DNA of 64,000 bases from Octopus vulgaris (taxonomy: Eukaryota). The stretch lies in assembly GCA_951406725.2 (NCBI GenBank), contig OX597821.1:13702001-13766000 (forward strand). Reading direction: 5' to 3'. Each line of letters opens with the position of its first letter. Within the stretch, counting starts at the first letter, position 1. The translations under genes and the position numbers were made by a program. Below are positions 5,137 through 29,070 of this stretch, piece after piece. The notes beneath the pieces were generated by a model that ran no database searches, was not told the origin of the DNA, and saw only the letters and a list, made by a program, of their open reading frames with translations.

Positions 5137-5350
5137 TTTTTTTTCAATATGTGACCGCGTGTGTATCGTTGGCGATTTTCTTTCCCCATCTTCCCTTCCT
5201 TGGACCTTTCCTTTTTCTATGTTTCTGACGAAGAGCTCCGCTCGAAACGTTAAATCCTCCTTCTTTATTTCCTTTCTTGAGTGTCCAATAACACTATACT
5301 TGTTCCACGTGCTCGCGTTGTTGTGTTTTCTCTTTGTTCATGTTTGGATT

Positions 5351-17683: not shown

Positions 17684-17895
17684 TAATAAAAGGAATTCCA
17701 ACCTTGTCTGATTTTCACGTTTTATTTACAATCTTATAATGATATATTATAAGATAATATAATAGAATAGAATAAAATAGAATAAAATAGTAGAATGTTA
17801 AATGTTTATTCTGATTGAACTAGTACTTTCATGCATTGAATTCTGCAATCTTCAGGTACATGTATTAGTGGTGACAGTCATGCTTCACAATTTTT

Positions 17896-17898
<3 letters not shown>
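17683..17898 (-). mobile_element. (TA)n-embedded element carrying a hammerhead ribozyme
   Basis: Flanked by TA tracts on both sides; its 17683-17745 end is homologous to the reverse complement of 45295-45352. Confidence 0.65.
17816..17860 (-). ncRNA. Type I hammerhead ribozyme (minimal, palindromic helix III)
   Basis: Minus strand: tgtac-CTGAAGA-t TGCA gaattcaa TGCA t-GAAA-gtac-TA-gttca; helix I 4/5 bp; predicted cleavage after CUA. Confidence 0.7.
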
Positions 17899-17935
<37 letters not shown>

Positions 17936-23672: not shown

Positions 23673-23924
23673 CAGAAAGGTTTTGCCAACAGTGAAAAAA
23701 ACAACTGATCTGAACGAATATATATTTATTTATTAAGAGAAGGTTGATTTGCCTAATAATGTGGGACGCAGTGTGTATATATGTGTGTATGTATGTATAT
23801 ATATATATATATATATACATACACACTGCGTCCCACATTATTAGGCAAATCAACCTTCTCTTAATAAATAAATATATATTCGTTCAGATCAGTTGTTTTT
23901 TTCACTGTTGGCAAAACCTTTCTG
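23673..23924. repeat. Perfect inverted repeat: 106-bp arms, 40-bp TA/TG spacer
   Basis: 23673-23778 is the exact reverse complement of 23819-23924. Confidence 0.95.
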
Positions 23925-28704: not shown

Positions 28705-28879
28705 CACAGAGAGAGGGAGAAAGAGATGAATATACTCATACAAATTATATTTACACAAAATCATATACAAACATAAATGTGTGTATACATATATGTGTAT
28801 TTGTGCTTGTGTTGGTATATATATATATATATATATATATAACACCCCCACCACCCTATATATATATATATATATATAT

Positions 28880-29022
28880 TTATTTATTATATAGAAGGAG
28901 CTTCTACAGGACTAGTACTGTTTCATTCAAGAGAAATCTTCAGGAAGCTATTTAACAAGAATTGTATAATACATAGCAGAGTACCTTACTTACTGTGGTT
29001 AACCCCGAATCAACCCGGGACC

Positions 29023-29025
<3 letters not shown>
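28880..29025 (-). mobile_element. (TA)n-embedded island carrying a hammerhead ribozyme
   Basis: ~145-bp complex sequence between two TA tracts. Confidence 0.6.
28899..28949 (-). ncRNA. Type I hammerhead ribozyme with all three helices
   Basis: Minus strand: AGCTTC-CTGAAGA-t TTC tctt GAA t-GAAA CAG tactagtc CTG TA-GAAGCT; helix I 6 bp perfect, helix III ACAG/CTGT, GUA cleavage triplet. Confidence 0.8.

Positions 29026-29070
<45 letters not shown>

What the first reader, a model, noticed from the sequence alone, without database searches (positions are those of the whole stretch)
28899..28949. Best hammerhead candidate: all three helices formed, GUA site
Seen (minus): AGCUUC CUGAAGA u-UUC-ucuu-GAA-u GAAACAG uacuaguc CUGUA GAAGCU. 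Helix I is 6 bp and helix III 4 bp, so monomeric folding is possible; the loop also contains palindromic ACUAGU. The non-canonical feature is U-U at the base of helix II, also seen at 17816. Inference: potentially active ribozyme that could cut a minus-strand host transcript.
Basis: partly seen in the sequence, partly recalled or inferred. Interest (0 to 1): 0.75.

Follow-up and report, generated by a model that had tools for sequence, protein, structure and literature searches.

The report
Hammerhead scrap of Hydra-clade retrotransposon
This hammerhead-shaped RNA motif is one of about 1,400 identical copies left by a young jumping gene of a known kind (a Hydra-clade Penelope-like element), not a host regulator; the ends of its sister copies suggest that the element's RNA likely starts at the motif's first letter and is mostly copied uncut.

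Summary
The type I hammerhead pattern at 28949-28899 (-) is real, but it is not special to this locus. It has 1,402 exact copies in the genome. It lies in a 148-bp two-armed scrap, inserted in (TA)n, of a young Penelope-like retrotransposon; full-length parents have an intact 713-aa RT/GIY-YIG ORF with the Hydra-clade motifs. The 'non-canonical' U-U pair is published in 14 of 25 Hydra-clade families. The 8-nt loop 3 is longer than theirs (1-3 nt). Helix II is weak and a downstream hairpin competes. No host gene was found. The 17816 site belongs to another family. One thing I did not find in print: at least 1,647 of 3,882 arms end at the first base of helix I, mostly with an extra G, 29 nt below TATAAA. 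This suggests a capped start there and copying of uncut RNA. The scan has already reported Hydra-clade hammerhead ends and the short-end/long-end rule elsewhere in this genome. Cleavage and the start site are untested.

The parts
28899..28949 (-). Type I hammerhead pattern (element positions +1 to +51); predicted cut between 28905 and 28904; U-U at 10.1/11.1; 8-nt self-complementary loop 3
   Evidence: identical to the motif in both pLTRs of full-length copy L113; 1,402 exact genomic copies
28882..28967 (-). Sense arm: pLTR piece from -18 to +68, ending at the short 3' end (cut+23); begins below the TATAAA box at -29
   Evidence: 100% identical over 86 nt to full-length copy L118
28890..28908 (-). 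Predicted competing hairpin that takes the cut site and the 3' strand of helix I
   Evidence: -5.9 kcal/mol; helix I probability falls from 1.00 to 0.41-0.46 once 11-20 further bases are present
28968..28983 (-). Flipped loop of the hairpin in the tail (+75 to +90), at the joint between the two arms
   Evidence: 16 of 16 identical; flanked by a 5-bp inverted repeat
28979..29029 (+). Inverted arm: last 51 nt of the tail (+91 to +141), the long 3' end (cut+96), ending in ATAT shared with the target
   Evidence: 100% identical
28857..28893 (.). (TA)n target, left side (its right edge overlaps the A/T-rich arm end)
29026..29067 (.). (TA)21 target, right side
17816..17860 (-).
   Evidence: (1,009 candidates, 40 scored)

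Best explanation
This is a 148-bp, likely promoterless and likely inert scrap of a young Hydra-clade Penelope-like retrotransposon, and the hammerhead pattern in it is the element's own terminal-repeat motif, predicted to cut its RNA only weakly. Shown: identity with full-length parents, copy number, two-armed layout in (TA)n, one long and one short end. Inferred: the element's endonuclease cut both strands of a TA tract; reverse transcription began at two fixed sites 23 and 96 nt below the hammerhead cut, one per DNA end; both cDNAs stopped early and were joined head to head. Inferred for the parent: RNA polymerase II starts at the first base of helix I, 29 nt below a TATA box, so the hammerhead would be the first 51 nt of the capped RNA. 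Most copying uses uncut RNA. Cutting, likely limited to a short time during transcription or helped by protein or a second copy, would remove a 45-nt capped leader from part of the transcripts. My odds: identity 0.95, start site at helix I 0.7, measurable cleavage of the 51-mer in Mg2+ 0.6, an effect of this copy on a host RNA 0.05.
For: 1,402 exact copies, control 0. Full-length L113 has pLTR-ORF-pLTR with the identical motif, and L112 also has an intact ORF. The ORF has RWR, DKT, YRDD, CxCx5C, a GIY-YIG-like VYKC...YIG, CxxC and CxH, matching the Hydra diagnostics. Of 98 copies read on contig C1, 47 end at cut+91/+96, 50 at cut+17 to +27 and 1 at +6; 30 of 30 opposite-strand pairs have one long and one short end, as expected from two RT start sites (PMC11167929). 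Start site: 22 of 98 arms end at the 5' edge of helix I against 9 in the next 150 nt; genome-wide 1,341 + 306 such arms against 2,235 with the genomic T at -1; G at -1 in 20 of 24 arms of 12 spacer-type joints, with +1 changed in 10 of 24; TATAAA at -29 in 89 of 95 copies. An extra G marks the cap in full-length L1 insertions (PMC11702581). Uncut template: only 47 copies have a non-A just before the cut, against 96 at a control position 5 nt upstream; junction shares are 19 of 30 and 12 of 30. In 100 ungapped copies the frequent changes fall on N7, loop 2, loop 3 and +1.
Against: No cleavage or 5'-end data exist for this family. The G at -1 could also come from the cDNA folding back on its own helix I copy (several joints go on with the matching CCT), although 8 of 10 arms with a changed +1 still have G. 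In four putative RNA runs the loose ends at this same place have C, not G, at -1; I cannot explain this. The spacer-type joints came from searches that excluded T at -1 or A at +1 on one arm. The family is young, so the few variable positions are weak evidence of selection, and there is no compensatory change within it. Clade placement rests on motifs and similarity, not on a tree. Pfam gave no RT or GIY-YIG hit on a 602-aa part of the ORF.
Confidence: 0.75

Rival explanations
1. The junction hot spot marks a 3' splice site (UAG|CUUC at +1/+2) or cDNA snap-back on helix I, not a transcription start.
For: An intron ends at helix I in D. virilis Penelope (PMC4209133). UAG is present in both subfamilies and a CUAAU lies 22 nt upstream in one of them. 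RNA-run loose ends read CAG|CUUC in 4 of 4 runs. Some joints continue with the snap-back sequence CCT.
Against: No common upstream exon appears in any joint, and no CAGGAG donor lies in the 3' UTR/pLTR of 5 full elements. The CUAAU is changed in the other subfamily while TATAAA is kept. Changes at +1 occur at joints (306 arms; 30 of 30 read have non-pLTR sequence upstream), which fits a modified first nucleotide (from general knowledge).
Confidence: 0.25
2. The ribozyme is fully active in the parent and, as a monomer or dimer, cuts unit-length RNA out of tandem transcripts; the cut RNA is circularised and copied.
For: This model is proposed in PMC4209133. The core is invariant and GUA is a working triplet in natural hammerheads (PMC1636495). 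Loop 3 allows a homodimer of -15.2 kcal/mol against -1.4 for the hairpin. Two insertions have both arms ending exactly at the cut (L267/268, L282/283).
Against: Arms ending at the cut are no more frequent than at a control position, while over 1,600 arms stop at +1, which a circle does not offer. 161 of 1,680 loop permutations dimerise as well. The Anolis PLE hammerhead is dispensable for insertion in vitro and cuts only with protein. A religated circle would leave no mark at the cut, so longer copies do not exclude this route.
Confidence: 0.2
3. This copy works as a host element that cuts a minus-strand host transcript.
For: The motif is intact. Domesticated intronic hammerheads exist in amniotes (PMC6155905). 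Hammerhead/tail sequence is far deeper than ORF sequence in contigs of four putative RNA runs.
Against: It is identical to 1,401 other copies, so its intactness reflects youth. No Pfam family reached its cut-off in 150 of 195 window ORFs scanned. The hammerhead fold is 0.2-1.2% of the ensemble in its own flanks. The depth is summed over all copies and the runs are only guessed to be RNA.
Confidence: 0.05

Closest known systems
Hydra clade of C-terminal EN+ Penelope-like elements (Craig et al. 2021, PMC8557442), e.g. Hydra-1_Amil, Hydra-1/2_Ajap, Hydra-1_Obim, Penelope-1_NV, Penelope-1_SK
   Same: RWK-type, DKT, CxCx5C, CxxC and CxH motifs; C-terminal GIY-YIG-like domain; (TA)n target; type I hammerhead near the 3' end; U-U at 10.1/11.1 (14 of 25 families); ACAG/CUGU helix III with GUA (3 families).
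   Different: Unit about 5.1-5.6 kb with a long microsatellite-rich 3' UTR (published: mostly under 3 kb); loop 3 of 8 nt (published 1-3); helix II of 3 bp; tail about 73 nt (30-40 bp is quoted for PLEs). By eye it is not Hydra-1_Obim (different protein and hammerhead).
Poseidon element of Anolis (Frangieh et al. 2024, PMC11167929)
   Same: Two 3' end classes (tail), AT-rich target, copying of uncut RNA.
   Different: There the ORF starts inside the hammerhead; here it starts at +183, 138 nt below the cut. No start site is given in the parts I read.
Penelope of D. virilis (PMC2377424, PMC4209133)
   Same: Promoter in the pLTR; hammerhead in the 5' leader.
   Different: TATA-less internal promoter with an intron ending at helix I; here a TATAAA at -29 and a predicted start at helix I.
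Animal non-LTR retrozymes (bioRxiv 10.64898/2026.07.22.740005)
   Same: Type I hammerhead related to PLE pLTRs.
   Different: Retrozymes are tandem non-coding units; this is a single truncated piece of a coding element.

Membership tests
Type I hammerhead ribozyme | Core CUGANGA, GAAA, UH with three helices, helix I open | tested here: met
Type I hammerhead ribozyme | Standard pair (usually G-C) at 10.1/11.1 | tested here: not met
   U-U; shared with 14 of 25 Hydra-clade families. G10.1-C11.1 is called highly conserved in PMC4209133.
Type I hammerhead ribozyme | Match to an Rfam hammerhead model | tested here: not met
   no hammerhead family up to E 10
Type I hammerhead ribozyme | Loop 1/loop 2 tertiary contact of canonical type I motifs | not tested
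   Helix I is 6 bp; no extension was sought by comparison
Type I hammerhead ribozyme | Site-specific self-cleavage | not testable with these tools
   Only contigs were available
EN+ Penelope-like element | pLTR-ORF-pLTR with RT and C-terminal GIY-YIG in one ORF | tested here: met
   L113 and L112; YRDD and VYKC...YIG; PF01541 on homologues P0001 and P0037; no Pfam hit on the 602-aa part itself
EN+ Penelope-like element | 5' truncation, inverted arm, tail at one end only | tested here: met
   30 of 30 opposite-strand pairs; window copy
Hydra clade | RWK and DKT motifs, CxCx5C linker, CxxC and CxH around E and N | tested here: met
   RWR38, DKT116, C567-C575, CDLC667, CMH695 against section 11
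Hydra clade | No CCHH motif in the endonuclease | tested here: met
   By eye in alignment A1: no conserved cysteine pair inside the GIY-YIG core
Hydra clade | N-terminal GxKF/Y not conserved | tested here: inconclusive
   The ORF has GFKS at that place, as do its homologues
Hydra clade | Insertion into (TA)n and a canonical hammerhead near the 3' end | tested here: met
Hydra clade | Placement in the clade on an RT tree | not tested
   No tree built. Homologue P0050 (41% identical, E 1.4e-164) is by eye nearly identical to published Hydra-2_Amil
Non-LTR retrozyme | Tandem non-coding units, each with a hammerhead | tested here: not met
   Single motif in the window copy; parent is coding

The most novel reading that the evidence does not exclude
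In this Hydra-clade element the hammerhead is the first 51 nt of the capped transcript and acts as a self-decapping switch. Uncut capped RNA is what gets reverse transcribed, and over 1,600 genomic arms record the cap as an extra G. Cutting removes the cap and a 4-codon upstream ORF, and a hairpin that forms about 10 nt later closes the time window for cutting. TATA-like boxes about 26-34 nt above helix I in 3 of 6 published Hydra consensus sequences (read by eye) hint that the layout is shared across the clade.
Probability: 0.35. Interest if true: 0.6.

Novelty: new member of a known kind. Interest (0 to 1): 0.33.

Why it matters
The motif itself is ordinary for its clade. What could matter is the family record. 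The role of hammerheads in Penelope-like elements is stated to be unclear (PMC8557442). Here thousands of young insertions point to a start site at helix I and to uncut templates in vivo, and intact ORFs exist. That makes the question directly testable with 5'-end mapping and a small set of transcripts.

Tried and rejected
Rfam on the whole window at E 1 was swamped by microsatellite matches to miRNA families (150 of 432 rows shown, none a hammerhead); on 28890-29030 it gave no hammerhead. Neptune or Nematis for the parent: rejected, the linker is CxCx5C and the motif DKT. Retrozyme: rejected, the parent is coding. A short spliced first exon ending CAGGAG: no such donor in 5 full elements. Enrichment of arm ends at the cut: not found against a control position. 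A DNA search with the 92-bp tail returned nothing, which the tool says shows nothing. No RNA holder was listed on record; the contigs laid cannot show starts, ends or strand. Transcription and presence/absence of the window insertion could not be read and stay open. PDB sequence search gave nothing below E 0.09. No other piece of this family or its ORF is in the window. Lunse et al. (PMC5785218), which bears on dimers and stem II variants, is not held. In one search the helix III slice for the dimer was off by one; one search gives the corrected values. In one search the promoter filter caught one subfamily only; one search replaces it.

Full report
1. The observation. A descriptor scan finds it as the only complete type I hammerhead pattern in the window, and 0 of 200 local shuffles give one as strict. 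The predicted cut is at 28905/28904. The fold is not strongly favoured: helix II has 3 bp with pair probabilities near 0.1, the hammerhead fold is 1.2 kcal/mol above the minimum, and it makes up 2.5% of the ensemble for the 51-mer and 0.2-1.2% with window flanks. The model ignores core contacts, so these are low estimates. A hairpin that forms once about 10 more bases are present takes the cut site and lowers helix I from 1.00 to 0.41-0.46. Rfam has no hammerhead match here.

2. What it belongs to. The window lies in a 2.8-Gb, microsatellite-rich genome; earlier scan notes call it octopus-like, which I did not test. The 51-mer has 1,402 exact copies, control 0. Of 20 copies extended upstream, 4 reached pieces of one ORF, and an ORF-anchored search gave full-length units. 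L113 is pLTR, tail, 713-aa ORF, long 3' UTR, pLTR, with the window's motif in both repeats; L112 carries a sister subfamily with an intact ORF; 2 of the 10 fetched had an unbroken ORF. The protein has 1,080 homologues at E <= 1e-20 among 7,993 candidates scored. It shows RWR, DKT, YRDD, CxCx5C, VYKC...YIG, CxxC and CxH, the diagnostics of the Hydra clade (PMC8557442 section 11). I built no tree.

3. Anatomy of this copy. It spans 28882-29029 between two TA tracts. One arm is element -18 to +68 (A1 of helix I = +1), the other is the inverted end of the tail, +91 to +141, and a flipped 16-nt hairpin loop joins them; all three pieces are 100% identical to full-length L118. I read 98 of the first 100 exact copies listed, all on contig C1 (two tandem copies were left out). 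Of these 47 end at cut+91/+96, 50 at cut+17 to +27, 1 at +6, and 30 of 30 opposite-strand pairs have one long and one short end. This fits two internal RT start sites and priming from both DNA strands, shown in vitro for the Anolis element (PMC11167929). Earlier scan notes report the same rule (e1-8669363); I had found it before seeing that note.

4. The U-U pair and loop 3. File S2 of PMC8557442 lists hammerheads for 25 Hydra-clade families in 26 rows. By my count 14 have U at both 10.1 and 11.1 (13 of 24 if the two identical Hydra rows count once); three have the same ACAG/CUGU helix III and GUA; all have a loop 3 of 1-3 nt. So U-U is common in the clade and the 8-nt loop is the departure. 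The loop keeps a dimer possible (-15.2 kcal/mol against -1.4 for the hairpin), but 161 of 1,680 loop permutations do as well. In 100 ungapped copies the frequent changes are at N7 (13), loop 2 (10 and 4), loop 3 (one position, 68) and +1 (6); core and helices II and III are nearly invariant. The family is young, so this is weak evidence of selection. The site at 17816-17860 is a minimal hammerhead of another family (1,009 candidates); ORF pieces lie upstream in 3 of 7 loci extended, two showing a CX4CxxC linker, and the window copy has a helix I substitution.

5. Where the arms stop. 22 of 98 arms stop at the 5' edge of helix I and only 9 in the next 150 nt. Genome-wide, 2,235 arms have the genomic T at -1, 1,341 have another letter there, and 306 have a changed +1: at least 42% of 3,882. 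Of the first 100 non-T arms listed, 49 have G, 48 A (38 of them in perfect fold-back pairs) and 3 C (counted by eye); many of those G could come from the partner arm. In 12 joints where both arms can be read, -1 is G in 20 of 24 arms and +1 is A 14, T 6, G 4; TATAAA starts at -29 in 89 of 95 longer copies. An extra G at the 5' joint marks the cap in full-length L1 insertions (PMC11702581, one passage). I infer a capped polymerase II start at A1, with RT primed in the 5' repeat running off the cap. Two of 30 ORF-bearing copies also begin there (L090, L110). Against: snap-back of the cDNA could supply a G, and loose ends in four putative RNA runs have C at -1, which could mean that the AG at +1/+2 serves as a splice acceptor. 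The second family shows a similar pile-up 32 nt below TATTTAA (that search began at this point, so it is biased). Searches returned no paper that maps a start site to helix I in this clade; subscription papers and PMC5785218 were not visible.

6. Cut or uncut. Arms that stop at +1 were copied through the GUA site, so their template was uncut. Arms that begin at the cut are rare: 47 copies with a non-A before the cut (19 of 30 read are joints, 7 of them explained equally by helix I microhomology), 37 at +3 (21 of 30), against 96 at a control site 5 nt upstream (12 of 30). Joints preceded by A by chance are missed. Two insertions have both arms ending exactly at the cut with filler between, a hint that some RNA is cut. 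This agrees with low in vitro activity of metazoan PLE hammerheads (PMC4209133) and with the Anolis result that uncut RNA is the main template.

7. Mechanism. Most likely the window copy is an accident of insertion, with no promoter and no role. In the parent the hammerhead likely forms the first 51 nt of the capped RNA, with AUGs at +24 and +84 and the main ORF at +183 (the first two are closed by stops after 4 and 2 codons, read from the sequence). Cutting would remove the cap. Whether that silences the RNA, feeds a circle or promotes cap-independent translation, as shown for viral 5' hammerheads (PMC13725137, passages), is open. A plant retrozyme also has its start removed by its hammerhead (PMC12029980, passages).

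8. Host transcript. No Pfam family reached its cut-off in 150 of the 195 complex ORFs of 55 aa or more. Short exons would be missed, so an intronic position is not excluded. The locus could not be checked in RNA data.

9. Papers seen. PMC4209133 and PMC11167929: parts 1-2 of 4. PMC8557442: passages, section 11, supplement parts 1, 2, 52, 53 and two searches. bioRxiv 10.64898/2026.07.22.740005: part 1 of 5. PMC6765202, PMC2377424, PMC11702581, PMC1636495, PMC6155905, PMC13725137, PMC12029980: passages. PMC5785218: nothing. TATA spacing and misreading at cap-adjacent nucleotides are from general knowledge.

10. Verdict. New member of a known kind. Interest 0.33, carried by the start-site and uncut-template record.

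Noticed in passing
window 17684-17900 (-); L062-L081, L122-L128: A second Penelope-like family with a minimal U-U hammerhead; many arms start 32 nt below a TATTTAA box, with CCAAT-like boxes further up, about 40 nt above helix I.
   Followed up: partly
window 5225-5260 (+), 15498 (+), 17987 (+): Three minimal-hammerhead-like ends of a further repeat; 32 similar motifs in 1.29 Mb of fetched loci, many with an altered core.
   Followed up: partly
window 28968-28983; element +73 to +95: The hairpin between the two 3' end classes resembles by eye the tails of published Hydra consensus sequences; a candidate binding site for the element's protein.
   Followed up: no
L267/L268, L282/L283, L288: Insertions whose arms begin exactly at the hammerhead cut, joined by A/T-rich or palindromic filler; 6 of 30 loci have small indels right at the cut.
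   Followed up: partly
L113:7830 in runs X1, X4, X8, X10: Loose ends give CAG before CUUC in all four runs, although C at -1 is 3 of 100 in the genome listing: possible use of the AG as a splice acceptor.
   Followed up: no
L114, L116-L121: Seven of ten full-length copies break frame at the same C run just after the RT region, leaving a 225-aa endonuclease piece in another frame; shared descent, assembly error or frameshifting were not told apart.
   Followed up: no
window 23723-23873: A 150-bp near-perfect inverted repeat around a TA tract, probably another two-armed insertion.
   Followed up: no
L048:2341-4755: An 805-aa RT-type ORF of an unrelated LINE-like element lies just upstream of a truncated copy.
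   Followed up: no
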